A stretch of DNA of 64,000 nucleotides, taken from positions 49,773-113,772 of the forward strand of contig JBGQJC010000001.1 of NCBI GenBank assembly GCA_041498815.1. Reading direction: 5' to 3'. Within the stretch, counting starts at the first letter, position 1; each line of letters opens with the position of its first letter. Under the pieces are notes generated by a model. The model saw nothing but the letters and a program-made list of their open reading frames with translations, did no database searches and was not told the origin of the DNA. The stretch comes from Alphaproteobacteria bacterium (lineage in GTDB: Bacteria; Pseudomonadota; Alphaproteobacteria; DATDPM01). This document shows positions 6,520-64,000 of this stretch, piece by piece. The position numbers and the translations under genes were made by a program.

Positions 6520-6655
6520 GCCTCGGGAGGCTAGGCAAGACTCCGGGGCGGCGACAAATCACGACTGCGATACCATGGCCCTCCTCCGCCGTCCGGCAAC
6601 TATTTGAGCGGCCCAGGATGGACGGGTATTCGCGCGCCGGGCTAGAACACCCCTG

Positions 6656-6745
6656 GATGGGTGGCCGAGCGGTTTAAGGTACCGGTCTTGAAAACCGGAA
6701 AACCCGCAAGGGTTTCGTGGGTTCGAATCCCACCCCATCCGCCAG
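6656..6745 (+). tRNA. tRNA-Ser (anticodon UGA), 90 nt with long variable arm and encoded CCA
   Basis: Acceptor stem ggatggg/cccatcc, anticodon loop cuUGAaa, a long extra arm and the T-arm ggttcgaatcc. Confidence 0.9.
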
Positions 6746-6976
6746 TTATACCGCAACCCGTTGATCTTCCAGCAAGCTGCTGATCCAGCAAACTTTTTTG
6801 TTCCTGGTTGTTACACCAACCTGTTACACCGGGAGCATGAAAGACATGAGCAAACATCCCCGATTGGTGGCCCGTGGTCGCCGCTATTATTTCCGCGCCA
6901 AAATCCCTGCCGATCTCGTTGAGCATGTGCCCCTAACCAGCGAGGGTAGCCCTTTTGGACGGTTGGGACGGATCGG

Positions 6977-7927
6977 GTGTCAACGAAATCGACGCCAGCA
7001 CGTTCCAAATCGTCGAAACTGGCCAGATCATTCGGAAGATCAGCTAGCGGTATCTTCGTGAAATGGACATATCCATGCGCGTTCACATGCGCGCCAGTAT
7101 CGAGTTCGTTGGCGAGCGGAGACGTGGAGGGAACGGCGGTGTGGAAGAGGATTGTGCGGGCGATTCGCGACGCACTCGTTTCGCCAGCACACGATGACGA
7201 GTACATTTCGCGAGAGTTATTTCACTTCGTTGGGCGTACGCATCCGGACAACGACGAAGCCAATTACGGGATTCTGTCAAAGATAATTTCGTCGCGAACG
7301 GTATCGCATCCGCCTCACAACAGCGACTGGGGCAAAATTAGCTATACGATCACTTCGACGGGCGGATTACTCGAAGGGACGCTCATTGAGCCGACGATTA
7401 CATGCTACAGCGATATCCCGTTGCGCAGCCTGCGAATCCATATTGAGAAATACGGCAAATTTGGTCTTTCATTTCATCGCGAGCCTTTGATTTTTCATGG
7501 CGCTAGGCCCGTCACTTATGTGCCGGTCGATTATGGGCCGGGCAATGTTCACGACTCTCCAGCGCAGGGGCGGTATTTAATCGCAGGCTTCGAGGCAGCA
7601 TATCGTGGCTTTATACGTCACATTTATGATAATGAAGCTCGGGCTGTGAGATCAAGCGTTATTGGCAAAGTGGCCGAAAATCGCGCTCAAACAGTTGAGG
7701 CCGTCAAACGCATCTTTGAGAAAGATTTTCTGGCTTTCATAAAAACGTATGATGACCGACTCCCGAAGGATCATCCAAACAACTACTACATGGAACGTGA
7801 GTGGCGGAAACTCGGGAACTTCCAGTTTACGCCGGATCAAGTAATCAGGGTGGTTGTTCCTTCTGCCTATCAAAACCAGATCGCTCGCGCGTTTCCGAAC
7901 TATGTAGATAAAATCTACACGATCTAG
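6977..7927 (+). CDS. hypothetical protein, sole cargo of the low-GC islet at tRNA-Ser (start uncertain; GTG at 7139 possible)
   Basis: The ORF is markedly AT-richer than its flanks from about 7180 to 7930. It has no ATG inside until residue 270. The C-terminal block is NYYMEREWRKLGNFQF. No family could be assigned confidently. Confidence 0.6.
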   Translation: MSTKSTPARSKSSKLARSFGRSASGIFVKWTYPCAFTCAPVSSSLASGDVEGTAVWKRIVRAIRDALVSPAHDDEYISRELFHFVGRTHPDNDEANYGILSKIISSRTVSHPPHNSDWGKISYTITSTGGLLEGTLIEPTITCYSDIPLRSLRIHIEKYGKFGLSFHREPLIFHGARPVTYVPVDYGPGNVHDSPAQGRYLIAGFEAAYRGFIRHIYDNEARAVRSSVIGKVAENRAQTVEAVKRIFEKDFLAFIKTYDDRLPKDHPNNYYMEREWRKLGNFQFTPDQVIRVVVPSAYQNQIARAFPNYVDKIYTI

Positions 7928-8234
7928 AAAATCGCACCTCTATCGAATAGCGAGTGCAGTTAGTTCATTGCACGGTGCTGCGCCTGGGAGCTACAAGCCG
8001 GGATACGCGAGCTTCTCAAGCGCCTCGCGCTTCACACTCAAAGACGCTCCGCCCGAGTACATGCCATACGTTGTCGTTGGCTTGTCGTGCCCGATAATGT
8101 CCGCCGCTACACCCTCGGGCACCCCGGCGTTCTCCAACAGTGTTGCGACTGCTACCTCAAACTGTTACACCAGACGGGCAACTATGGCCTAAAAAAGCTA
8201 GGATTTCCGCTGGTTTCAGCGTCTCGCTGGCTTC

Positions 8235-8250
8235 TCCCACCCCATCCGCC
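8235..8250 (+). repeat. 16-bp direct repeat of the tRNA-Ser 3' end (attR-like) closing the islet
   Basis: tcccaccccatccgcc is identical to tRNA-Ser positions 6729-6744. Confidence 0.55.
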
Positions 8251-55772: not shown

Positions 55773-56135
55773 ATGACGCGCTTTCGTTTCCTGTGGATCG
55801 CTTTCGTTCTCGCGGGCTGCTACCCCGGTCCCGAAAATCCGCCCGATTACGGGCCTTATCCCGACGGTTACGAGTCCATCGTCACGACCTGGATCCAGGG
55901 GCATGTCTTCAACGCGCCGACCGTCAAGGATGTTTCGATGACCAAGCCGGTCCAGGACCAGCTTTGGGTCGGCAAGCTTTATGGCGGCTTCGCTTACGGA
56001 TACAAGACCTGCCTTTCTTACGACGTTCAGGATCGCGACGGCCGTTACAAGGGCATCGCGCAATACACCGTGCTTTTGAAAGACGGCGCCGTCGCCCACG
56101 CCGGCGTTTACGATCTCGTCAACGAGGGGTGTTAG
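55773..56135 (+). CDS. lipoprotein whose 3' end is the source of a direct-repeat family
   Basis: Lipobox VLAGC. The C-terminus ...AGVYDLVNEGC is encoded by the repeat core. Confidence 0.7.
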   Translation: MTRFRFLWIAFVLAGCYPGPENPPDYGPYPDGYESIVTTWIQGHVFNAPTVKDVSMTKPVQDQLWVGKLYGGFAYGYKTCLSYDVQDRDGRYKGIAQYTVLLKDGAVAHAGVYDLVNEGC

Positions 56136-56140
56136 GGGGG
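56101..56140 (+). repeat. direct repeat copy A (core GGCGTTTACGATCTCGTCAACGAGGGGTGTTAGGG, gene 3' end plus stop)
   Basis: The same core recurs at 57608-57643, 59260-59294 and 60991-61018. Confidence 0.8.
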
Positions 56141-56188
56141 GCGCGGCAAAAAGCGCGCGCCTCGCCCCGTAGAAGGAAGGAGAATATC

Positions 56189-56470
56189 ATGACCCTCCCA
56201 ACAGTTAAGGCGGCGAGCGGCTTGATCAATATCGTGGCCTTAGGGTGGGCTCTTTCGGCGGCGCTTGTCGTCTTGTATGTAATTTGTGCGCTGGCCGGGA
56301 TGATATTTCCGGAGGCCCCGCTCACCCACGGATGGTTGAGTCTCTTCTCAACCGCACCGCTCGGTACCCTGAAGAGCTTCGTCGACGGCATCGTTGGCAG
56401 TATCGGGTTTGCCTGGGTGACGGCCTTTGTTCTTGGGTTGGTATACAATCGCCTCGCCTCGCGCGGATGA
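56189..56470 (+). CDS. small membrane protein (93 aa, hypothetical)
   Basis: Shine-Dalgarno gaaggaaggag and 2-3 TM helices. It is the first gene after repeat copy A. Confidence 0.5.
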   Translation: MTLPTVKAASGLINIVALGWALSAALVVLYVICALAGMIFPEAPLTHGWLSLFSTAPLGTLKSFVDGIVGSIGFAWVTAFVLGLVYNRLASRG

Positions 56471-56643
56471 CAGAAAAACGGCGTTCAGCCAAAGTTTCCG
56501 CCCGAACCCGTCCACCTTCCTGGCGGCGTGGTGGCCGCCGCCATGCCGTTCGATGAGGACTCGGGCCGAGCGGTAATGTCACGGTCGTGCGGCCGGCCGC
56601 ATGGGCGCGATACGATCGACGCCGAAGTGGAGGAACGCGGGGC

Positions 56644-56868
56644 ATGAATGATCGATCCCAAACGCCCTGGTGGCGCACCAAGGCCGGGCTCGTATTCTGC
56701 GGCTTCCTGGCGGTCGCGGGCTTCTTCCTGATCACCGAGCACACCGCGCATGTCTTCGGTGCTTTGCCCTATCTGCTCCTTGCCGCATGTCCTTTGATGC
56801 ACCTCTTCATGCACCACGGGCACAGCGGCCGCCATCACGGCGGCGATGACGAGCATCGGCCGCGATGA
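56644..56868 (+). CDS. DUF2933 family small protein (His/Cys-rich metal-binding-like)
   Basis: A TM helix plus CPLMHLFMHHGHSGRHHGGDDEH. Confidence 0.6.
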   Translation: MNDRSQTPWWRTKAGLVFCGFLAVAGFFLITEHTAHVFGALPYLLLAACPLMHLFMHHGHSGRHHGGDDEHRPR

Positions 56869-57497
56869 ACGGTACGCCGGCCTATGGCCTGTGGTCGCTC
56901 GCCGCCATCAATTCGGCCGTGTTCATCATCTTTGCGTACAGCTTTACGAAGCCGCGGACGAACAGGGACTGGCGCTCGTTCGGCGCGTTCAGCGCCTTCA
57001 TCGTCGCGCTCTTTTCGGAGATGTACGGCTTTCCGTTGACGATTTACTTCCTCTCCGGTTGGCTGCAGAGCCGTTATCCTCAGGTCGATTGGTTTTCGCA
57101 CGACGCCGGCCACCTATTGGAGGAACTATTCGGCTGGAACGTTAATCCGCACTTCGGGCCATTCCATATCCTGAGCTTCATCTTCATCGGGGGTGGCTTC
57201 ATCTTGCTTGCGGCGGCGTGGCGCGTTCTCTATGACGCGCAGCGGCAGCATCGTCTCGCGGTAGCCGGCCCGTACGCATATGCGCGGCACCCGCAATATG
57301 TGGGCTTTGTCGCCATCATGTTCGGGTTCCTCCTGCAATGGCCGACGATCCTCACATTGGCGATGTTCCCGCTGCTGGTGTTCATGTACGTGCGCTTGGC
57401 GGTCGCCGAAGAGCATGACGCGCGGCGCGAATTCGGCGAGGCCTACGAGCGGTACGCCGCGGTAACACCACGGTGGGTGCCGCGCCTCGGCGGATAA
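56865..57497 (+). CDS. ICMT/PEMT-like membrane methyltransferase family protein
   Basis: GPYAYARHPQYVG plus a C-terminal EE..L...FGE.Y block. Its start overlaps the DUF2933 stop (ATGA). Confidence 0.75.
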   Translation: MNGTPAYGLWSLAAINSAVFIIFAYSFTKPRTNRDWRSFGAFSAFIVALFSEMYGFPLTIYFLSGWLQSRYPQVDWFSHDAGHLLEELFGWNVNPHFGPFHILSFIFIGGGFILLAAAWRVLYDAQRQHRLAVAGPYAYARHPQYVGFVAIMFGFLLQWPTILTLAMFPLLVFMYVRLAVAEEHDARREFGEAYERYAAVTPRWVPRLGG

Positions 57498-57563
57498 TGC
57501 TCGGCTTACAGCGGCATCCCGTCAAAAATTTTCATTGGGTCATGGGCTTCGCGGCGACCGCGG

Positions 57564-57655
57564 GGGCAATACACCGTGCTATTGAAGGACGGCGCCGTCG
57601 CTAGAGCCGGCGTTTACGATCTCGTCAACGAGGGATGTTGAGGGGGCGCGGCAAC
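57564..57655 (+). repeat. direct repeat copy B (about 90 bp duplicate of the lipoprotein gene 3' end, including stop)
   Basis: About 90% identical to 56061-56150. It encodes ...AIEGRRRR.AGVYDLVNEGC stop. Confidence 0.8.
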
Positions 57656-57795
57656 CGCTGGGCTTAAGAAACTCCGCTCTACAATCCTGTTGCCGACGAT
57701 ATTACCTATCACTTTAGTCCATTCGCGGCCGGGGCCGGCGGGTGGTCAACCGCACCGTCCAGAACGCCGAGCGCCCGGCCATAAGGGAGGCGGCC

Positions 57796-58230
57796 ATGCA
57801 TGTGGCGCAGATACTGAAGGCCAAGGGAGACCGCGTTGAAACCGTCGGCGAGACGGTGAGTATTGCCAAGGTGTCGCAAATGCTTCGGGAAAAGCGGATC
57901 GGTGCCGTGGTCGTCACCGGCGGCGATGGAGCCGTGTCCGGCATCCTCTCCGAGAAGGAAATCGTCCATGGTCTCGCCGCTTACGGGACCGCCCTGCTCG
58001 GAATGACGGCGGCGCAGATCATGAATCGGGAGGTCGTAACCTGCACGCCCGAATCCCGTGTCGAGGAGCTGATGCGCGAGATGACGACGCGCCGCGCCCG
58101 GCATCTGCCGGTCATCCATCAAGGCGCGCTCGCCGGCATCGTCAGCATCGGCGACGTCGTCAAGTGGCGGCTCGACGAACTCCAGTCCGAGGCCCAAAGC
58201 TTGCGGGATTACGTGACCGGATCGCGCTGA
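57796..58230 (+). CDS. CBS domain pair protein (alternative start at 57742)
   Basis: Shine-Dalgarno aagggagg. Tandem CBS motifs (IGAVVVTGGDGAVSGILSEKE ... HLPVIHQGALAGIVSIGD). Confidence 0.7.
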   Translation: MHVAQILKAKGDRVETVGETVSIAKVSQMLREKRIGAVVVTGGDGAVSGILSEKEIVHGLAAYGTALLGMTAAQIMNREVVTCTPESRVEELMREMTTRRARHLPVIHQGALAGIVSIGDVVKWRLDELQSEAQSLRDYVTGSR

Positions 58231-58339
58231 CGTAAACGCGGCGGTTTAGGCGATGCGGGTTTTTGGCGCGGATTCCGGGACGGAGGCGAGGTGGCGGGCC
58301 CGAAGACCCGCCACTTCGTTGAGCTTCAAGTCTTGCGCG

Positions 58340-58621
58340 TCACTTCGTCGGCGCCGGCGCCGGCGCCGGTGCGCACGCCTTTAGCGTCGTGGAGTACACC
58401 ATGCCCGTCGGGCAAGTCGGTGTTGGCGCCGTAGTAGTAGGAGCGGGAGCAGCAGTAGGAGGGGGGGCGGGCACGCATGCTTTTTTGGTCGCGTCCCACA
58501 CCAAGAGCGGGGGGCACGCAGGAACAGGAGCGGCTTTAGTCTGAGCGTATGCGGCCATCGGAGCCGAGACAGCGAGCAGAAGGCCAGCAAGAGCTGCGCC
58601 TGTAATGATTTTAAACAACAT
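58340..58621 (-). CDS. small secreted Pro/Ala/Thr-rich protein with four Cys
   Basis: A signal peptide, then APVPACPPLL..KKACVPAPPP...CPTGMVYSTTLKACAPAPAP. Confidence 0.45.
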   Translation of the reverse strand: MLFKIITGAALAGLLLAVSAPMAAYAQTKAAPVPACPPLLVWDATKKACVPAPPPTAAPAPTTTAPTPTCPTGMVYSTTLKACAPAPAPAPTK

Positions 58622-58884
58622 CTGGAACTCCTTTTTTTGACTTACTTAGTCGCCATGCGATAATTGTATTACATTTATCATTTGTCACAAAGATTCCTCG
58701 ACGGTGACCCGAGACCCTCGTTTTCCTCCAGATTTGAGTAGAGTCCGTGACTCCAGGAAGGAGACGGACGAGGCGTAAGTCGAGGTTCACGCTGACATGC
58801 CGCGACCGGTAGACGATGGCGGCTTTCGGTCCGGAAGCGGAAGCTCGCGCGCTGCTGTCAGTCCGGATTTATGGGTTCACGGAT

Positions 58885-59187
58885 TCAGCGCCGCCGATTT
58901 ACGTTGTTTTTCCATTCGCGCCGGCCCCTGCGGATGAGCCGGACAATCCAGCGCTTGAGCGGCGGCACGTCGTCGGCCAGAAGCAGAAGGCCCAAGGGAA
59001 TCATCCAAATTCCGAGAACGGGCAGGAATCCGAAAATCCCGCCAATAATGAAAACGACGGCGGCCGGCAGGCGCACCCATCGGCCGGCGGGCGCGCGCAG
59101 CCAATGCACGGCGCCGCGCAGCCGCACCGGCAACGTATCGATCATGTGCCGGATATAGCGCTCGCGGCGCTCGTGACTCGGGCTCAT
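58885..59187 (-). CDS. PGPGW/YbaN-like small membrane protein
   Basis: A basic N-terminus, then IIGGIFGFLPVLGIWMIPLGLLLLADDVP. Confidence 0.45.
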   Translation of the reverse strand: MSPSHERRERYIRHMIDTLPVRLRGAVHWLRAPAGRWVRLPAAVVFIIGGIFGFLPVLGIWMIPLGLLLLADDVPPLKRWIVRLIRRGRREWKNNVNRRR

Positions 59188-59257
59188 GGCGACATCCGCG
59201 GGCGATCATGCAATTGCATGGTTTCGGTGTCAGGAGATTCAAAATCGAATGGTGAGC

Positions 59258-59296
59258 CTGGCGTCTACGATCTCGTCAACGAGGGGTGTTAGGGCG
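59258..59296 (+). repeat. direct repeat copy C
   Basis: ggcgtctacgatctcgtcaacgaggggtgttaggg. Confidence 0.8.
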
Positions 59297-59315
59297 GCGG
59301 GCAACGGCGGGTAAT

Positions 59316-59690
59316 TTAACGACAACTCTCGATGTTGCCTCCCCGGTCTGCACCGCAAGCGGAGTTGCCAAAGACGGTGTTGTTATTGATCGTTGCGGAG
59401 GCGCAATCGGTTACTTCGACACTCCAGTACTGGCTGGTACCATTTCCGAGGTCTCTCCTGCACAGCGCTCTGGCGTATACTGCTCCTTCTTGCTGCTGGT
59501 TCGGAACAACCCCTTTTTGCGGCACGAGAGATAGGCGAAGGATATTCTTGTCCAGCACACTGTCGTCCCGAAGTGTGATCTCTGTCGAATTTTTCAGGAG
59601 AGCGAGTCGCGCCTGATCATTCGAGTCAAGGTTGCACCCGGTGAGAGACAAGACCATAAAGAGAACACCGAAGCATTGAGTCTTTATCAT
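59316..59690 (-). CDS. lipoprotein (hypothetical), AT-richer
   Basis: Lipobox LSLTGC and four Cys. Confidence 0.55.
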   Translation of the reverse strand: MIKTQCFGVLFMVLSLTGCNLDSNDQARLALLKNSTEITLRDDSVLDKNILRLSLVPQKGVVPNQQQEGAVYARALCRRDLGNGTSQYWSVEVTDCASATINNNTVFGNSACGADRGGNIESCR

Positions 59691-59763
59691 TTTTATCCTC
59701 GCTTTTTTGCCGTGTTCTGATTTGCCAGGAGAGGACTATTCTTGCCCAATTGGAGGCCAGTAA

Positions 59764-59913
59764 CATGTCCCGCCATGAAATCGTGTTGGGCAGGAAAAGC
59801 AAACCGCTATGGAGTGCCGCTCGGTCAGTCGCCCCGAGCGCATGGGATTTAGGCCGGTATTCCACTGGGGCGCACAAGGTCCCGAGGACGTCGAAATCGT
59901 GGATTACCACTGA
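59764..59913 (+). pseudogene. 5'-truncated higB-like toxin remnant (only the C-terminal ~25-50 codons retained)
   Basis: A frame ending in TGA at 59911-13 reads ...MGFRPVFHWGAQGPEDVEIVDYH, which is the characteristic HigB/RelE-family C-terminus. A stop lies at 59761 and no room remains for the N-terminal two thirds. Confidence 0.45.
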
Positions 59914-59938
59914 CGGTTTCTTGTCGAGGACAACAGCC

Positions 59939-60232
59939 ATGCCAAGCCCCAAGCCCATCCACCCCGGTGTCGTTCTCAAAGAGGACGTGATGGACGAGCT
60001 CAAGCTCAGTGCCAACGCCTTGGCGCTGGAGCTGCACGTACCCGCGAACAGGATCACCGGGATCGTCAATGGCGAGCGCGCCATCACGCTGGAGACGGCG
60101 CTGCGATTGGAGCGCTATCTCGGCGCCTCGGCCGACTTCTGGCTGAACCTTCAGAGCCGGTACGAATTGGAGGCCGCTTCGGGGCTGCGCCGGCGCGTGA
60201 AGCGCGAGGTCCGGCCGCGGAAGATGGCTTGA
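59939..60232 (+). CDS. higA: HigA-family antitoxin (XRE-type HTH)
   Basis: MPSPKPIHPGVVLKEDVMDELKLSANALALELHVPANRITGIVNGERAITLETALRLERYLGASADFWLNLQSRYELE. Confidence 0.8.
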   Translation: MPSPKPIHPGVVLKEDVMDELKLSANALALELHVPANRITGIVNGERAITLETALRLERYLGASADFWLNLQSRYELEAASGLRRRVKREVRPRKMA

Positions 60233-60366
60233 GAGGCGCGGGACGGAGGCGCGGGCCAAAAGAGAGCGATCTCTATTAGGGCGATTCTTGAACGGAGGCG
60301 CGGGCGAAAGTAGGCCGTGGCGATTAAGGTGGCACAGATTGTGGGGATGCCTGAAATTTCACGCTC

Positions 60367-60843
60367 TTAGAATTGCCTTTGTGCAAGGCCTTTCCTTATG
60401 CGTTTAAGGCGGCGCGTTTGCTCACTTTGAATCTTCTTCAGCACCTTCGTGAGATCAGCGTCACGATGGAACTGCCCGCTTACTGAATTCCCAGGAGGAC
60501 GTGCGACACGCAGCAGTATGGACTCGATGTCCTTGAGATAACGAACTCGACCCACGCGGAAGATCGCGAAGCTGTCCCATTTGGCCCGGTGTTTGTTCTT
60601 TGTATGACCCAGGAGTCTCCAATACAGGTTTTTCGCTAGGCCGACGTAGTAGAGGGTTTTACGCCTGTAGAGAAGATAAATGCCTGAATACCCCCGCGTG
60701 ATTTCTTCAAGTCCGTGTTTGAAGGTTGGTTCGTAAAGAAGATCGATCGGAAGCCGCGCCGATACGCCCTTCACCAAGGCGCCCTTGCTCGAACCTTTCT
60801 TGATCTTGCGGTGCGTACGGAATCGTTGCCGTTTCTTTGGCAT
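60367..60843 (-). CDS. GIY-YIG nuclease family protein
   Basis: GIYLLYRRKTLYYVGLAKNLYWRLLGH (GIY ... YVG ... R) with a basic N-terminus. AT-richer. Confidence 0.7.
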   Translation of the reverse strand: MPKKRQRFRTHRKIKKGSSKGALVKGVSARLPIDLLYEPTFKHGLEEITRGYSGIYLLYRRKTLYYVGLAKNLYWRLLGHTKNKHRAKWDSFAIFRVGRVRYLKDIESILLRVARPPGNSVSGQFHRDADLTKVLKKIQSEQTRRLKRIRKGLAQRQF

Positions 60844-60989
60844 AGGCACCCACTGAAGAGGTCTAACTTCGGCCCCGTGATATTGTAACGATGCGGCAAG
60901 CGTTGGGCTAGTCCAGCATACTACGGTGGGCGAGCGCTTGGTCCGTTTTGGACGCCGCCACGAGCCGGAAAGATTTGGCGCCATAGCTC

Positions 60990-61018
60990 GCGCCGGCGTC
61001 TATGATCTCGTCAACGAG
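60990..61018 (+). repeat. direct repeat copy D (shortest; 28 bp core) fused to the start of the next gene
   Basis: gccggcgtctatgatctcgtcaacgagg followed immediately by tacgaATG. Confidence 0.7.
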
Positions 61019-61024
61019 GTACGA

Positions 61025-61309
61025 ATGAAGACTTTGATCTACATCCTTGCCGTGACTGTATTGGTTGGCTGTGCAGGGGGTCCCGTTGGTTGGGGGGGCA
61101 CTGATGAGGTGCTTTTTTCCGACAAGGATACGATTAAGATTCAATGGGACAACACGGTAACTAGTGAAGACGCCGTACGTCAGAAGGCGATAGCTCACTG
61201 TGCAAGGACGAACCGCGGGGCTCAAGTCGTTGATGCAACGTCTGACCCATTTACCTTTGGGTTGATTCAATCGAAGACATGGAAATGCACTGAGTTGCAC
61301 GCTAACTAA
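61025..61309 (+). CDS. lipoprotein (hypothetical, 94 aa)
   Basis: Lipobox LVGCAG. Its Shine-Dalgarno is supplied by the repeat core (GAGG). Confidence 0.55.
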   Translation: MKTLIYILAVTVLVGCAGGPVGWGGTDEVLFSDKDTIKIQWDNTVTSEDAVRQKAIAHCARTNRGAQVVDATSDPFTFGLIQSKTWKCTELHAN

Positions 61310-61339
61310 CCGACCAAACGGCCGCTAAAATAGAAGATT

Positions 61340-61393
61340 TGGTGAGCCCGGAAGAAGTCGAGCCCGCGGCCCTCTGATTAAAAGTCAGATGCT
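61340..61393 (-). repeat. partial duplicate of the tRNA-Lys 3' two-thirds (att-like)
   Basis: tggtgagccc plus a diverged T-arm plus ggccctctgattaaaagtcagatgct, matching 61926-61979 of the intact gene. Confidence 0.7.
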
Positions 61394-61894
61394 TTAGTGT
61401 GCCAATACCTTGGCGATGCAGAAAGCTCCTGCGATGAAAAAACCAAACGACGCAAACGCAAAAATGATCATTGCAATAGCAGTGCCTCTCGTAGCGTGTG
61501 CTAACCAGTTAAGTGGCTTGAGTTTGTCAGCGTCCGTCGAAACCTCGGCGAGAGCACGCACGTTTTTAAACGTGACGAAGCTTTGATGGAAATAAGCCAC
61601 GAGGCCTGCAAAACCAGCAAGAATTACACCCCATAAGAACGGGCGCATGCCTTGTAGGACTTGCGACAATACATTTTCTTTCCCGGCTTTGTCCCAAAGC
61701 TGACCTACGAATGCGAGCAGCGCAATGACTGCGCCTGCATTGAGCACTACGGCTGTGCGTAGGGCGACTAGGCCGATCTCGCCAGCCATGCGGTCACTAT
61801 GTAACTGGGACTCAAATCGGGCCTGCCAGTGTTGCTCCTGGCGGCGGAGAGTGGCTCGATAACGCTCAAGTTCTTTTTCTTCGTCGAGTGTCAC
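61394..61894 (-). CDS. membrane protein (hypothetical), AT-richer, between the partial and intact tRNA-Lys
   Basis: 166 aa with three C-terminal TM helices. Confidence 0.5.
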   Translation of the reverse strand: MTLDEEKELERYRATLRRQEQHWQARFESQLHSDRMAGEIGLVALRTAVVLNAGAVIALLAFVGQLWDKAGKENVLSQVLQGMRPFLWGVILAGFAGLVAYFHQSFVTFKNVRALAEVSTDADKLKPLNWLAHATRGTAIAMIIFAFASFGFFIAGAFCIAKVLAH

Positions 61895-61925
61895 CGATAA
61901 TCCACGCGGCTAGTGATTAGCGCTT

Positions 61926-62000
61926 TGGTGAGCCCGCCGGGGATCGAACCCGGGGCCCTCTGATTAAAAGTCAGATGCTCTACCGCTGAGCTACGGGCTC
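61926..62000 (-). tRNA. tRNA-Lys (anticodon UUU), 75 nt with encoded CCA
   Basis: The reverse complement gives the acceptor GAGCCCG/CGGGCTC, the D-arm GCTCAGCGGTAGAGC, the anticodon loop CTTTTAA and the T-arm CCGGGTTCGATCCCCGG. Confidence 0.9.
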
Positions 62001-62129
62001 ACTGGGGCGGGAAGATAGGCTTGCCGGCGCGGTTTATCAATCGAGCCGCCCGCAGGCGGCCGACCACCGCACTCTATTACAAGCAGCCCGTTGCGGCGCT
62101 GATGCTTCTTATCGCGCGGCGGGTTGAAG

Positions 62130-62321
62130 CTATCCGCTGTCGCGGATTCGGCCGTCGGGACGGTGCGTCACGACCTCAACATGCTCGCGGCGGGCGGTTT
62201 CGCGTGCGGCGTCATACGCCTCGGTCTGGGTATCGAAATTCCGGCTTACCCGGTCGGCACCCTCGCGGCGAGTTGCCCAGTTATCCCCGTGCGTCACGAC
62301 ATGAATGTCTGTTTTGGACAT
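62130..62321 (-). CDS. DUF2188 domain protein (63 aa)
   Basis: MSKTDIHVVTHGDNWATRREGADRVSRNFDTQTEAYDAARETARREHVEVVTHRPDGRIRDS. Confidence 0.65.
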   Translation of the reverse strand: MSKTDIHVVTHGDNWATRREGADRVSRNFDTQTEAYDAARETARREHVEVVTHRPDGRIRDSG

Positions 62322-62547
62322 GAAACGCCCTCGTTTCACAATGGCGGGCCCATTGCCCACCTTTGTATCGATAGGGACATAAACTGGCCAAAAAATCAAG
62401 GTATTGTTAGTTAGCGTTAAACAAACACCACATACAGAGGGCCGGGCGCCCGCCCCGGCGGGGCCGAAATGCTAATATGAGTCGGTTGAACTTGGCGGCT
62501 TGCCAAGGGCTTTGCCGCGGCCCGGCAGAGCATTTGGCCAAGGGGGC

Positions 62548-62979
62548 CGGATGCCGCATCGAACGAAGCTTCTCGACGATTTGGGAGTCGTGGTCGTCCG
62601 GTTTCGGGACGGCGTCACCTTCGTCGACGTCAAGACCGCGATGGACGAGGTGCCGGCGATGCCCGGGTTCCGGGAGGGACTGAAGGCGGTCGCCGATTTC
62701 CGGGATTGCACCACGGCCCTGCGCGGGGCGGAGGTGAAGAAGCTTGCGGATTACGCCAAACGCGCCGATCCGGCTTGGGGCGAAACCAGATGGGCGCTGC
62801 TGGCCGCAAGCGACATCATTTACGGGTTGTCCCGCATGTATATGGTTTATACGGCGGGATACAAGGTGACGAGCCATGCATTCCGGACCGCCGGGGACGC
62901 CAACGACTGGCTCGGCATCGGCGTCGACGTGGACGATATCTTGAAGCGGGCGGGCAACAAAATCCCGGAAAACTCCTAG
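62548..62979 (+). CDS. hypothetical protein
   Basis: Clean ATG and balanced composition. Its stop overlaps the convergent coaD stop. Confidence 0.4.
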   Translation, partial: RMPHRTKLLDDLGVVVVRFRDGVTFVDVKTAMDEVPAMPGFREGLKAVADFRDCTTALRGAEVKKLADYAKRADPAWGETRWALLAASDIIYGLSRMYMVYTAGYKVTSHAFRTAGDANDWLGIGVDVDDILKRAGNKIPENS

Positions 62980-63512: not shown

Positions 63513-64000
63513 TCGCTCCCTTCCCTTCCGCCTTCGCCCGATGGCTTGCGCGGACCGGCGCCGTTTTCGCCCGGGCCGGTTCCGCCATTCGGCCCGGCTT
63601 CGTTTTCCGGCCCGTTGTTTTCGCCCAAACCGCCTTCCGTCCGGTTGTTTTCGTCCGGGCCGGTTTCCGTCCCGGTGCTTTCGCCCAAACCGGTTTCCGT
63701 CCCGGTGCCGTTGCCGGGGGTGCCGTTTTCGGGCTCGGCTTCAACCGGATCGCCTTCATCGGCAAGACGGGTGACGGAGACCACGCGCTCGGCCTCGGCG
63801 ACCTTGAACAGGATCACGCCCTGGGTCTGGCGGCGCGCGATGCGGATGTCGTGCACCGGGCAGCGGATGATCTGGCCGCCGTCCGTCACCAGCATGACCT
63901 GATCCTTGGCCGCCACCGGAAAGGCCGCGACCACCGGGCCGGTGCGGTTGGTGAGCTCCATGTTGGCGATGCCCTTCCCGCCGCGATTGGTGATCCGGTA
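63509..64000 (-). CDS. gyrA: DNA gyrase subunit A, C-terminal end (gene continues beyond the 3' edge of the window)
   Basis: GyrA C-terminal beta-pinwheel blade (QVMLVTDGGQIIRCPVHDIRIARRQTQGVILFKV) followed by an acidic Gly/Glu/Thr-rich tail. ATGA overlap with coaD. Confidence 0.85.
   Translation of the reverse strand, partial: YRITNRGGKGIANMELTNRTGPVVAAFPVAAKDQVMLVTDGGQIIRCPVHDIRIARRQTQGVILFKVAEAERVVSVTRLADEGDPVEAEPENGTPGNGTGTETGLGESTGTETGPDENNRTEGGLGENNGPENEAGPNGGTGPGENGAGPRKPSGEGGREGSE
63540..63730. repeat. imperfect tandem repeats encoding the low-complexity acidic GyrA tail
   Basis: Reiterated ccggtttccgtcccggtgc / ttttcgcccaaaccg units. Confidence 0.5.

What the first reader, a model, noticed from the sequence alone, without database searches (positions are those of the whole stretch)
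61340..62000. Partial tRNA-Lys(UUU) duplication (3' 54 nt) flanking a 530-bp AT-rich segment with a single membrane-protein gene
61340-61393 reproduces the 3' acceptor strand and the anticodon arm of the intact tRNA-Lys at 61926-62000 exactly, with a diverged T-arm between. A partial 3' tRNA copy in direct orientation is an attL/attR scar. The enclosed segment holds only a 166-aa membrane ORF. Combined with the repeat array to its left, the whole 56.1-62.0 kb interval looks like a composite integration hotspot using two different att sequences.
Basis: seen in the sequence. Interest (0 to 1): 0.55.

Follow-up and report, generated by a model that had tools for sequence, protein, structure and literature searches.

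The report
Integration scar beside a tRNA-Lys gene
A 59-base copy of the end of a lysine tRNA gene marks where foreign DNA was inserted next to that gene, leaving a one-gene remnant with no integrase; this is a real but ordinary kind of bacterial genome scar.

Summary
A 59-nt direct repeat (61338-61396 and 61924-61982) copies the 3' part of tRNA-Lys(UUU). Blocks of 13 and 26 nt are exact. The T-arm between them is diverged and cannot pair.

The repeat encloses 529 bp of low-GC DNA (52% against 63% for the window). This DNA is almost entirely one 166-aa membrane-protein gene.

Close relatives carry an identical tRNA but different DNA starting 2 nt after CCA. One relative (L002) has its own partial tRNA copy exactly where the window keeps a 9-11-nt stub (59250-59260). 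The locus therefore holds nested scars of repeated insertion at the tRNA 3' end.

Only the acceptor strand plus CCA is shared by every copy. This points to a crossover at the T/acceptor junction, which is an inference.

No integrase was found in the locus or among the window ORFs scanned. The segment is a decayed, integrase-less islet, like a CIME.

The cargo gene belongs to a widespread uncharacterised family. Members also occur in an integrase-bearing island and in a similar small insertion at the 3' end of mdh in other bacteria.

The neighbouring repeat array copies the 3' end of a lipoprotein gene. It behaves the same way in another species, so the "two-att hotspot" reading holds.

This is a known kind of feature with modest interest.

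The parts
61926..62000 (-). Intact tRNA-Lys(UUU) gene with encoded CCA; the regenerated integration target
   Evidence: ARAGORN. Rfam RF00005 at 75.4 bits. Identical in L001, L002, L005, L007 and L008.
61924..61982 (-). tRNA-side copy of the 59-nt direct repeat: D-stem 3' strand to CCA plus 2 nt
   Evidence: the repeat finder family D4 (repeated).
61338..61396 (-). Displaced or partial tRNA-Lys 3' copy in the same orientation as the tRNA. 50 of 59 nt are identical; the T-arm cannot pair.
   Evidence: Not called as a tRNA.
61351..61357 (.). 7-nt block (GAAGAAG against CCGGGGA in the tRNA) that replaces the T-stem 3' strand. It directly abuts the 13 nt shared with the tRNA.
   Evidence: Mismatch positions. 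8 of 9 mismatches fall in 17 nt (corrected P about 0.004).
61397..61923 (.). Low-GC inserted segment between the repeats: a 32-nt spacer plus the ORF
   Evidence: GC 52.4% against 63.3% for the window. Absent from L002 and L005, present in L001, L007 and L008.
61394..61894 (-). 166-aa membrane-protein gene of an uncharacterised family, with foreign codon usage (GC3 0.53). The stop codon lies in the tRNA-derived repeat.
62012..62040 (-). Promoter-like site (TTGATA-17-TATCTT) just upstream of the tRNA. It is a candidate driver of tRNA plus ORF read-through.
   Evidence: consensus scan only. No terminator-like site lies between the tRNA and the ORF.
59261..61337 (.). Older mosaic insert between the 59250 stub and the partial copy. 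It holds a 124-aa lipoprotein gene, a HigB stub plus HigA, a 205-aa GIY-YIG-like gene, a HigB fragment, a 94-aa lipoprotein gene and two D1 copies.
   Evidence: Differs from L002 except for HigA. Most genes have GC3 of 0.54-0.59.
59250..59260 (-). Stub of a tRNA-Lys 3' end (TGGTGAGCCtG) at the ancestral outer boundary. L002 has a 58-nt partial tRNA copy at this exact position.
55773..56135 (+). Lipoprotein gene ('gene A'). Its last 43-56 nt form the second repeated att-like sequence (D1 copy 1, 56085-56127).
57566..57646 (+). D1 copy 2: an in-frame displaced 3' end of gene A, 81 nt at 89% identity
59254..59284 (+). D1 copy 3, fused to the tRNA stub
60977..61019 (+). D1 copy 4, abutting a HigB fragment on its left and the 94-aa lipoprotein gene on its right

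Best explanation
The partial tRNA-Lys copy is the far-end scar of a site-specific insertion into the 3' end of the tRNA-Lys(UUU) gene. The insertion was most likely made by a tyrosine integrase.

The general mechanism is established. A circular element carries an attP that imitates the tRNA's 3' part. It recombines with the gene, and the tRNA stays intact. A tRNA-like fragment is left at the distal end of the insert.

This happened more than once here. The 529-bp segment (61397-61925) is the innermost and youngest insert. It sits in front of an older 2.1-kb mosaic (59261-61337). The outer boundary of that mosaic is the stub at 59250-59260.

The only sequence common to all copies is the acceptor 3' strand plus CCA (CGGGCTCACCA, extended to AA in the element-derived copies). 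I therefore infer that strand exchange took place at the junction of the T and acceptor stems. On this view the rest of the partial copy is the element's own tRNA-like arm. That arm need not fold, which would explain the unpaired T-arm.

The integrase and other element genes have since been lost. What remains is an integrase-less single-gene islet.

The 166-aa membrane-protein gene starts 32 nt after the tRNA on the same strand, with no terminator between them. It is probably transcribed by read-through from the tRNA promoter.

Shown: the repeat, the variable occupancy, the nested copies, the foreign composition and the absence of an integrase from the ORFs scanned.

Inferred: the integrase type, the crossover position, the order of events and the co-transcription.
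For: Repeat geometry
- The repeat is real, in direct orientation and on the 3' side of the tRNA.
- It is absent from 36 distant coaD-tRNA-Lys loci.

Variable occupancy
- The tRNA is identical in six assemblies.
- Window-type and L002-type sequences diverge 2 nt after CCA.
- L002 has a different 4-kb insert ending in its own 58-nt partial copy, at the position of the window's 59250 stub.
- The flank beyond the stub (TTCGATTTTG) resembles the flank after the tRNA in relative L109 (TTCGAATTGC). L109's CoaD is 88% identical to the window's at the protein level.

Foreign origin
- GC is 52% and GC3 0.53, against GC3 of 0.8-0.9 for core genes.
- Against L007 the segment has 0 differences over 61613-62055 (443 nt). 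The adjacent 1,483 nt of flank has 42 differences.

Cargo gene on mobile elements elsewhere
- One homologue lies in an integrase/AlpA/primase island at tRNA-Met (L013).
- Another lies in a 1.45-kb insert flanked by mdh's 3' end and an in-frame displaced mdh fragment (L010).

The same target and the decay route are seen independently
- Metagenome loci L111, L116 and L121 are displaced 3' fragments of a tRNA-Lys with the same 3' end. L106 and L121 form an empty/occupied pair.
- The tRNA-Ser gene at 6655-6744 has a 16-nt displaced fragment 1.5 kb away, with integrase stubs in between.

Literature
- The tDNA-plus-displaced-fragment signature, and the anticodon-loop, T-loop and T/acceptor-junction crossover sub-sites, are described in PMC4383910.
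Against: - No integrase or integrase fragment lies between 55 and 64 kb. None was found among the other window ORFs scanned against Pfam. The recombinase is therefore inferred, not seen.
- No empty-site or circular junction for the 529-bp segment was found.
- The partial copy's pattern is odd. It has a 26-nt exact anticodon arm next to a 7-nt block substitution. Simple decay of a displaced host 3' half does not predict this.
- The tRNA-type and D1-type scars are interleaved rather than nested. Extra rearrangements must be assumed to explain this.
- Comparative evidence rests on a few short metagenome or MAG contigs (L002, L005, L007, L008), which could be chimeric.
Confidence: 0.72

Rival explanations
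1. The 586-bp unit (ORF plus tRNA-like site) is not a dead relic. It is a still-mobile, integrase-less mini-cassette, excised and re-inserted in trans by an integrase encoded elsewhere in the genome or on an incoming element. This would resemble a CIME or a single-gene cassette.
For: - The ORF fills the space between the repeats exactly, and its stop codon lies in the att-like sequence.
- The segment is identical in two backgrounds whose flanks differ by 2.8%.
- The same gene family sits in another small, integrase-less insert flanked by a target 3' end (mdh, L010).
- Other small integrase-less inserts flanked by target-gene ends occur at gene A, in this window and in another species.
- The gene has no conserved partner genes across its contexts.
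Against: - The 7-nt block difference next to the shared core would hinder attL x attR recombination if it overlaps the exchange region.
- No empty site, circular junction or second insertion site of this same cassette was found.
- No candidate integrase was found in the window.
- The tRNA-Ser islet shows that simple decay of integrase genes does occur in this genome.
Confidence: 0.15
2. The insert entered by homologous (Campbell-type) recombination between the resident tRNA gene and a tRNA-like stretch on a circularised foreign fragment. No site-specific integrase was involved.
For: - The repeats share a 26-nt exact block, which could just support RecA-dependent exchange.
- No integrase is present.
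Against: - Sequence variation among relatives starts at a fixed point 2 nt after CCA. All copies share precisely the acceptor strand plus CCA.
- L002's partial copy has a diverged anticodon arm and so lacks the long identity block.
- A donor tRNA allele would be expected to have a foldable T-arm, and this copy does not.
Confidence: 0.07
3. The partial copy is the remnant of a second, tandem tRNA-Lys gene that decayed in place. It is unrelated to mobile DNA.
For: Tandem tRNA genes are common in bacteria (general knowledge). The copy is in the same orientation as the tRNA.
Against: - No relative has two tRNA-Lys genes here. This covers 36 coaD-tRNA-Lys loci plus L002, L005 and L109.
- L002 and L005 lack this copy.
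- The enclosed DNA is compositionally foreign.
- The mismatches are clustered, not scattered as decay would give.
Confidence: 0.03

Closest known systems
tRNA-gene genomic islands mapped by the tDNA-plus-displaced-fragment signature (Islander; PMC4383910)
   Same: There is an intact tRNA gene at one end and a 3' tRNA fragment in direct orientation at the other. The content is foreign in composition and varies between strains. The shared core lies at the T/acceptor junction, one of the three recognised crossover sub-sites.
   Different: No integrase gene is present, and Islander requires one. The insert is only 0.53 kb with one gene. The fragment has a block-substituted T-arm and a long exact anticodon arm.
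CIMEs (cis-mobilizable elements) and tandem accretion at the 3' end of target genes, including a tRNA-Lys gene in Streptococcus agalactiae (PMC5704250)
   Same: The element lacks integration and transfer genes but is still bounded by att-like repeats. Several generations of inserts sit in tandem at the 3' end of a tRNA-Lys gene.
   Different: There is no evidence that either att site is still functional, or that the element derives from an ICE or IME. The host is an uncultured alphaproteobacterium, not a firmicute. The element is much smaller than described CIMEs.
Tycheposon-rich islands of Prochlorococcus (bioRxiv 10.1101/2020.12.28.424599)
   Same: A tRNA-adjacent island is built by successive integrations. 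New elements push older ones inward, leaving scattered partial tRNAs and degenerate elements.
   Different: No tycheposon-type recombinase or replication module is present here. Any relationship to that family is untested.
Integron gene cassettes
   Same: The unit is a single promoterless-looking ORF plus a recombination-site-sized sequence of about 60 nt. It is inserted co-directionally just downstream of a strong promoter.
   Different: The site is a tRNA fragment in direct repeat, not an attC hairpin. There is no IntI and no attI. The neighbouring units are not co-oriented ORFs separated by the same site. The resemblance is architectural only.

Membership tests
tRNA-targeting integrative island (Islander definition) | Intact tRNA or tmRNA gene at one end of the interval | tested here: met
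   tRNA-Lys(UUU) at 61926-62000.
tRNA-targeting integrative island (Islander definition) | Cognate tDNA fragment in the correct (direct) orientation on the 3' side | tested here: met
   59-nt repeat at 61338-61396; 0 matches expected by chance.
tRNA-targeting integrative island (Islander definition) | Tyrosine integrase gene (PF00589) inside the interval | tested here: not met
   No PF00589 in any ORF of 55-64 kb. A motif scan for integrase stubs was negative there. None was found among the other window ORFs scanned.
tRNA-targeting integrative island (Islander definition) | Presence/absence or alternative content among related genomes, with the breakpoint at the att core | tested here: met
   L002 and L005 differ from the window, L001, L007 and L008 starting 2 nt after CCA.
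CIME (cis-mobilizable element) | [quoted passage not shown] | tested here: met
   Only one ORF, of unknown family.
CIME (cis-mobilizable element) | Retains functional attL and attR | tested here: inconclusive
   The 13-nt 3' core and the 26-nt block are identical, but a 7-nt block beside the core differs. Function cannot be judged from sequence.
CIME (cis-mobilizable element) | Derives from an ICE or IME and can be mobilised by accretion with one | not testable with these tools
   No ICE or IME remnants were seen. Testing needs mating or excision assays.
tRNA gene or tRNA pseudogene conserved in the lineage | Cloverleaf recognised by tRNA models | tested here: not met
   The partial copy is not called by ARAGORN or by Rfam at E<=1. 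The T-stem strands GCGGG and TCTTC cannot pair.
tRNA gene or tRNA pseudogene conserved in the lineage | Present at the same place in relatives | tested here: not met
   Absent from L002 and L005 and from 36 coaD-tRNA-Lys loci.
Integron cassette | attC-type imperfect inverted repeat, and an IntI/attI platform | tested here: not met
   No inverted repeat occurs within the site. No integrase was found among the window ORFs scanned.

The most novel reading that the evidence does not exclude
The 586-bp unit may belong to a class of integrase-less, one-to-three-gene cassettes. Each would carry an att site of about 56-83 nt that copies the 3' end of a conserved host gene.

Candidate targets seen here are tRNA-Lys and lipoprotein gene A in this genome, gene A again in a second species, and mdh in a third organism.

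Such cassettes would be shuffled in trans by integrases encoded elsewhere. The 166-aa membrane-protein family would be a recurrent free-standing passenger. At the tRNA-Lys site, the cassette would be expressed from the tRNA's promoter.
Probability: 0.12. Interest if true: 0.6.

Novelty: new member of a known kind. Interest (0 to 1): 0.3.

Why it matters
The finding marks the tRNA-Lys/coaD locus of an uncultured alphaproteobacterial lineage as a strain-variable insertion hotspot. It faces a second hotspot at the 3' end of a lipoprotein gene.

This explains why assemblies of these populations break at this point. It also identifies the 59.3-61.9 kb genes as recently acquired accessory genes.

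The finding gives a concrete example of how far an integrated element can be whittled down. Here one gene is left, apparently plugged into a tRNA promoter.

It also flags a widespread, unannotated small membrane-protein family as mobile-element cargo worth testing, for example for phage exclusion. The family has about 2,000 cluster representatives at E<=1e-3.

None of this changes current understanding of tRNA-targeted integration.

Tried and rejected
Searches that found nothing or nothing close
- Exact-protein look-ups for the 166-aa ORF and the 94-aa lipoprotein: not on record.
- GTDB genome scan with CoaD: the best hit was only 63% identical, so no close species was available.
- Metagenome scan with a locus-specific 37-mer: 0 hits.
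- Viral-contig scans with the tRNA 3' end, with the partial copy's variant T-arm and with the protein family: all 0.
- tblastn against phages gave nothing; against plasmids it gave one weak Vibrio hit.

Integrase searches
- phmmer with the L013 integrase against all ORFs of the window and all loci: only the self-hit.
- Motif scan for integrase stubs in the tRNA-Lys region: none.

Function of the 166-aa protein
- Pfam gave only a sub-threshold TctB hit. PADLOC and PHROGs gave nothing.
- The AlphaFold2 model (pLDDT 77, three long helices) had no significant PDB match.
- Ten distant family members also lack Pfam domains.

Other features looked for
- Arm-type repeats or inverted repeats inside the cassette: none.
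- A conserved partner gene next to homologues: none.
- A direct repeat of tRNA-Met in L013: not within the fetched part.

Explanations considered and rejected
- Chance match.
- Tandem tRNA pseudogene.
- Integron cassette.
- T-loop crossover. The T-loop and T-stem of the copy differ from the tRNA.
- Random decay as the cause of the T-arm divergence. The mismatches are clustered, corrected P about 0.004.
Full report
**1. The observation**

ARAGORN finds two tRNA genes in the window. One is tRNA-Lys(UUU) at 61926-62000 on the minus strand, and Rfam's tRNA model scores it at 75 bits.

A direct repeat of 59 nt joins 61338-61396 to 61924-61982, with 50 of 59 positions identical. Its parts, on the plus strand, are:
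- TT plus TGGTGAGCCCG (2 nt beyond CCA, CCA, discriminator and acceptor 3' strand): 13 nt, exact.
- The next 17 nt (the T-arm): 9 of 17 identical.
- GGCCCTCTGATTAAAAGTCAGATGCT (variable loop and anticodon arm): 26 nt, exact.
- Three further nt of the D-stem: 2 of 3 identical.

The 26-mer occurs twice in the window, against none in 100 shuffles.

Eight of the nine mismatches lie in the T-arm. Six sit in a single 7-nt block, 61351-61357 (GAAGAAG against CCGGGGA), which is the T-stem 3' strand. Such clustering has a corrected probability of about 0.004.

The copy's T-stem strands (GCGGG and TCTTC) cannot pair. Neither ARAGORN nor Rfam at E<=1 sees the copy as a tRNA.

Between the repeats lie 529 bp at 52.4% GC, against 63.3% for the window. 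This DNA consists of a 32-nt spacer and one ORF, 61394-61894 (minus strand, 166 aa). The ORF's TAA stop codon is the mutated TAG of the tRNA's D-stem segment.

The repeat is slightly longer than stated, and 'AT-rich' is true only relative to the window.

**2. The enclosed gene**

The ORF is a real gene. Twenty-six proteins of 125-185 aa match it at 47-56% identity, most of them over essentially its whole length. They share strongly conserved motifs such as NAGAVVALLAFVGQLW (alignment A2).

A profile search of 1.84 billion cluster representatives finds 2,075 members at E<=1e-3 and 43 at E<=1e-30.

The protein has two strongly hydrophobic segments and a third that is weaker. AlphaFold2 models three long helices with mean pLDDT 77.

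No function could be assigned:
- Pfam gave only a sub-threshold TctB hit. PADLOC and PHROGs gave nothing.
- The model has no significant PDB match.
- Ten distant family members carry no Pfam domains.

Its GC3 is 0.53, against 0.8-0.9 for neighbouring core genes such as coaD. It is therefore compositionally foreign.

**3. Comparative evidence at the locus**

An exact look-up of the adjacent CoaD protein retrieved nine contigs.
- L001 is the same sequence as the window. It has no differences between 57120 and 62788.
- L002 and L005 are 97-98% identical to the window on the coaD side and have the identical tRNA.
- Two nt after CCA they switch to unrelated sequence: AATTGCC... against AAGCGCT... 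in the window, L001, L007 and L008.

L002 carries about 4 kb of different content next to the tRNA. This comprises an HD-domain fragment, a 247-aa gene, HigB/HigA and two lipoproteins. It ends in its own 58-nt partial tRNA-Lys copy at L002 7798-7857. That copy has the same acceptor strand plus CCA and a mostly conserved T-arm, but a diverged anticodon arm.

Beyond that copy, L002 and the window are again 98.5% identical (window 56732-59261). At the exact corresponding place the window keeps only TGGTGAGCCtG (59250-59260), fused to a copy of the left-hand repeat.

L007 comes from a background whose flank differs from the window at 42 of 1,483 positions. It has no differences over 61613-62055, which covers 313 nt of the insert, the tRNA and 55 nt upstream. 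About 9 differences would be expected in the insert part alone.

No closer relatives could be found:
- The best GTDB representative has CoaD at only 63% identity.
- A locus-specific 37-mer is absent from the metagenome collection.

At greater distance, coaD followed by tRNA-Lys(UUU) is widespread in Alphaproteobacteria. Of 36 such loci, none has even a 13-nt tRNA fragment in the downstream sequence that was fetched, which was at most about 10 kb.

The partial copy is thus not a conserved pseudogene, and the DNA next to it is variable.

**4. The same target is used elsewhere**

A scan of metagenome contigs for the tRNA's last 23 nt gave 20 loci.
- Seventeen are intact tRNA-Lys genes.
- Three (L111, L116, L121) are displaced 3' fragments that begin in the anticodon loop.
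- L121's fragment is followed by the same flank that follows the intact tRNA in L106, so these two form an occupied/empty pair.
- L109 is the closest extra relative. Its CoaD is 88% identical at the protein level, and it has the same uvrA-ssb-gyrA-coaD order.
- After CCA, L109 reads TTCGAATTGC. This resembles the TTCGATTTTG beyond the window's 59250 stub. The stub is therefore plausibly the ancestral boundary.

**5. Mechanism**

The general principle is established. Tyrosine integrases recombine an element-borne attP with the 3' part of a tRNA gene. The element restores the gene, and a displaced fragment marks the far end.

Crossovers fall in the anticodon loop, in the T-loop, or at the junction between the T and acceptor stems. 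Tandem arrays arise by repeated use of the site (PMC4383910; PMC5704250; bioRxiv 10.1101/2020.12.28.424599).

Three nested copies exist here: the tRNA itself, the 59-nt copy at 61338-61396, and the stub at 59250-59260, which is 58 nt long in L002. The only sequence they all share is the acceptor 3' strand plus CCA.

The three element-derived junctions are the window tRNA, the L002 tRNA and the 61338 copy. Each continues with AA. The ancestral flank continues with TT.

From this I infer a crossover in CGGGCTCACCA(AA), at the T/acceptor junction. The remainder of each partial copy would then be an element-borne, tRNA-like arm that is not required to fold. This accounts for the non-pairing T-arms in both partial copies.

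An anticodon-loop crossover would instead make the copy's T-arm the former host sequence. That sequence should have been functional, and random decay would not produce a 7-nt block change beside 39 unchanged positions. The T-loop and T-stem of the copy also differ from the tRNA, which argues against a T-loop crossover.

The origin of the block substitution, and of the long exact anticodon arm, is still not fully explained. Possibilities include later patch replacement or gene conversion.

**6. No recombinase is present**

No ORF from 55 to 64 kb has an integrase domain. This rests on my Pfam scans and on the precomputed Pfam hits for every called gene of the matching contig. A motif scan for integrase stubs is negative in this region.

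About 35 further ORFs from the rest of the window were scanned against Pfam, and none is an integrase.

The 529-bp segment is therefore an integrase-less islet. That this genome does whittle islands down is shown 55 kb away.
- tRNA-Ser(UGA) at 6655-6744 has an exact 16-nt copy of its 3' end 1.5 kb downstream.
- Between them lie low-GC DNA and an AbiGi gene.
- There is also an integrase N-terminal stub (DUF6538, E=5.7e-6).
- A probable C-terminal stub (...IIGHDKPTTTYGMYS...) is present too.

**7. Expression (inferred)**

The ORF starts 32 nt after the tRNA on the same strand. The only promoter-like site nearby is TTGATA-17-TATCTT, just upstream of the tRNA. No terminator-like site separates tRNA and ORF.

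Read-through transcription from the tRNA promoter is therefore the simplest expectation.

The RNA of the partial-copy region folds more stably than shuffled sequence (-33.6 kcal/mol, z = -3.6). It may act as a 3' end structure between the convergent 166-aa and 94-aa genes. This is speculative.

**8. The cargo gene elsewhere**

- P0005 (54% identical) lies in an island with a tyrosine integrase, an AlpA-type regulator and a primase. The island sits next to tRNA-Met (L013).
- P0008 lies beside a Fic gene.
- P0007 lies in a 1.45-kb, three-gene insert between mdh and sucC. The insert is flanked by mdh's 3' end and an in-frame, diverged copy of the last ~20 mdh codons. This is the same 'regenerated target plus displaced fragment' pattern, again without an integrase.
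- No partner gene is conserved next to the family.
- The family is absent from viral contigs and phage genomes.

The gene thus behaves as free-standing cargo of integrative elements.

**9. The left-hand repeat array and the 'composite hotspot'**

The array has four copies, at 56085, 57591, 59242 and 60977, with core GGCGTnTAyGATCTCGTCAACGAGG. It is the 3' end of lipoprotein gene 55773-56135.

The C-terminus of that gene...DGAVAHAGVYDLVNEGC, is conserved in homologues at 58-74% identity. Copy 2 keeps 25 codons in frame with mostly synonymous changes, as expected of a displaced gene end.

A second species carries a homologue of the gene at 72% identity (L123, L124). There the gene is followed by a single hemerythrin gene. 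An in-frame 56-nt copy of the gene's own end comes next, after which the two contigs diverge.

The lipoprotein gene's 3' end is therefore a second, conserved insertion site.

Two caveats apply:
- The order of scars is interleaved: D1, D1, tRNA stub, D1, D1, tRNA copy, tRNA.
- The 56.1-59.25 kb part has native-like codon usage (GC3 about 0.8).

The junction TGGTGAGCC|TGGCG at 59250-59262 looks like a secondary join at GAGCC microhomology. A HigB fragment at 60930-60980 is separated from the HigB stub plus HigA at 59860-60232. Rearrangements have evidently followed the insertions.

**10. Verdict**

The feature is the distal scar of insertion at the tRNA-Lys 3' end. It encloses a decayed, integrase-less, single-gene islet within a nested, strain-variable hotspot.

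This is a new member of a well-known kind. The closest matches are Islander-type tRNA islands, which it fails only on the integrase criterion, and CIME-like relics in tandem arrays.

Points of mild interest:
- The extreme reduction to one gene plugged in behind a tRNA promoter.
- The block-substituted T-arm.
- The recurrence of small integrase-less inserts flanked by target-gene ends.
- The unannotated cargo family.

The most novel reading not excluded is that such units are still shuffled in trans as cassettes. I rate its probability at about 0.12.

Noticed in passing
window 6655-8250: tRNA-Ser(UGA) at 6655-6744 has an exact 16-nt copy of its 3' end (TCCCACCCCATCCGCC) at 8235-8250. The 1.5 kb between is 52% GC. 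It holds an AbiGi abortive-infection gene (6977-7927), an integrase N-terminal stub (DUF6538-like, starting about 6846) and a probable integrase C-terminal stub (7991-8137, minus strand). TGTTACACC repeats lie near both ends. This is a second decayed tRNA islet.
   Followed up: partly
window 55773-61019; L123 10334-11000; L124 1620-2290: The last 43-56 nt of lipoprotein gene 55773-56135 recur four times, bounding 1.5-1.7-kb gene modules with no integrase. A homologous gene in another species is likewise followed by a one-gene (hemerythrin) insert and an in-frame copy of its own 3' end. The gene's 3' end looks like a conserved insertion site.
   Followed up: partly
L010 9271-10802: A homologue of the 166-aa gene sits in a 1.45-kb three-gene insert between mdh and sucC. 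The insert is flanked by mdh's 3' end and an 83-nt, 76%-identical, in-frame displaced mdh fragment. No integrase is present.
   Followed up: partly
window 59250-59262 and 60930-60980: A tRNA-Lys stub is fused directly to a D1 copy at a GAGCC microhomology. A 51-nt HigB fragment abuts D1 copy 4, about 1 kb away from the HigB stub plus HigA. Both are signs of secondary rearrangement or circular permutation inside the older insert.
   Followed up: no
window 63560-63710: 30-nt tandem repeats encode a Gly/Glu/Asn/Thr/Pro-rich stretch at the 3' end of the ORF immediately upstream of coaD; the matching gene in L001 is annotated as DNA gyrase subunit A. This stretch is the most variable part of the flank between the window, L002 and L007.
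   Followed up: no
window 62130-62979; L019-L050: In many Alphaproteobacteria tRNA-Lys(UUU) lies about 100 nt after coaD. In this lineage two extra small genes (a 142-aa unknown and a DUF2188 gene) sit between them. Relative L109 has two paralogues of the 142-aa gene instead.
   Followed up: no
L101 (Logan SRR29604901), whole contig: This 3.2-kb contig begins, ends and is bisected by D1 copies. The repeats evidently break short-read assemblies of this population at the hotspot.
   Followed up: no
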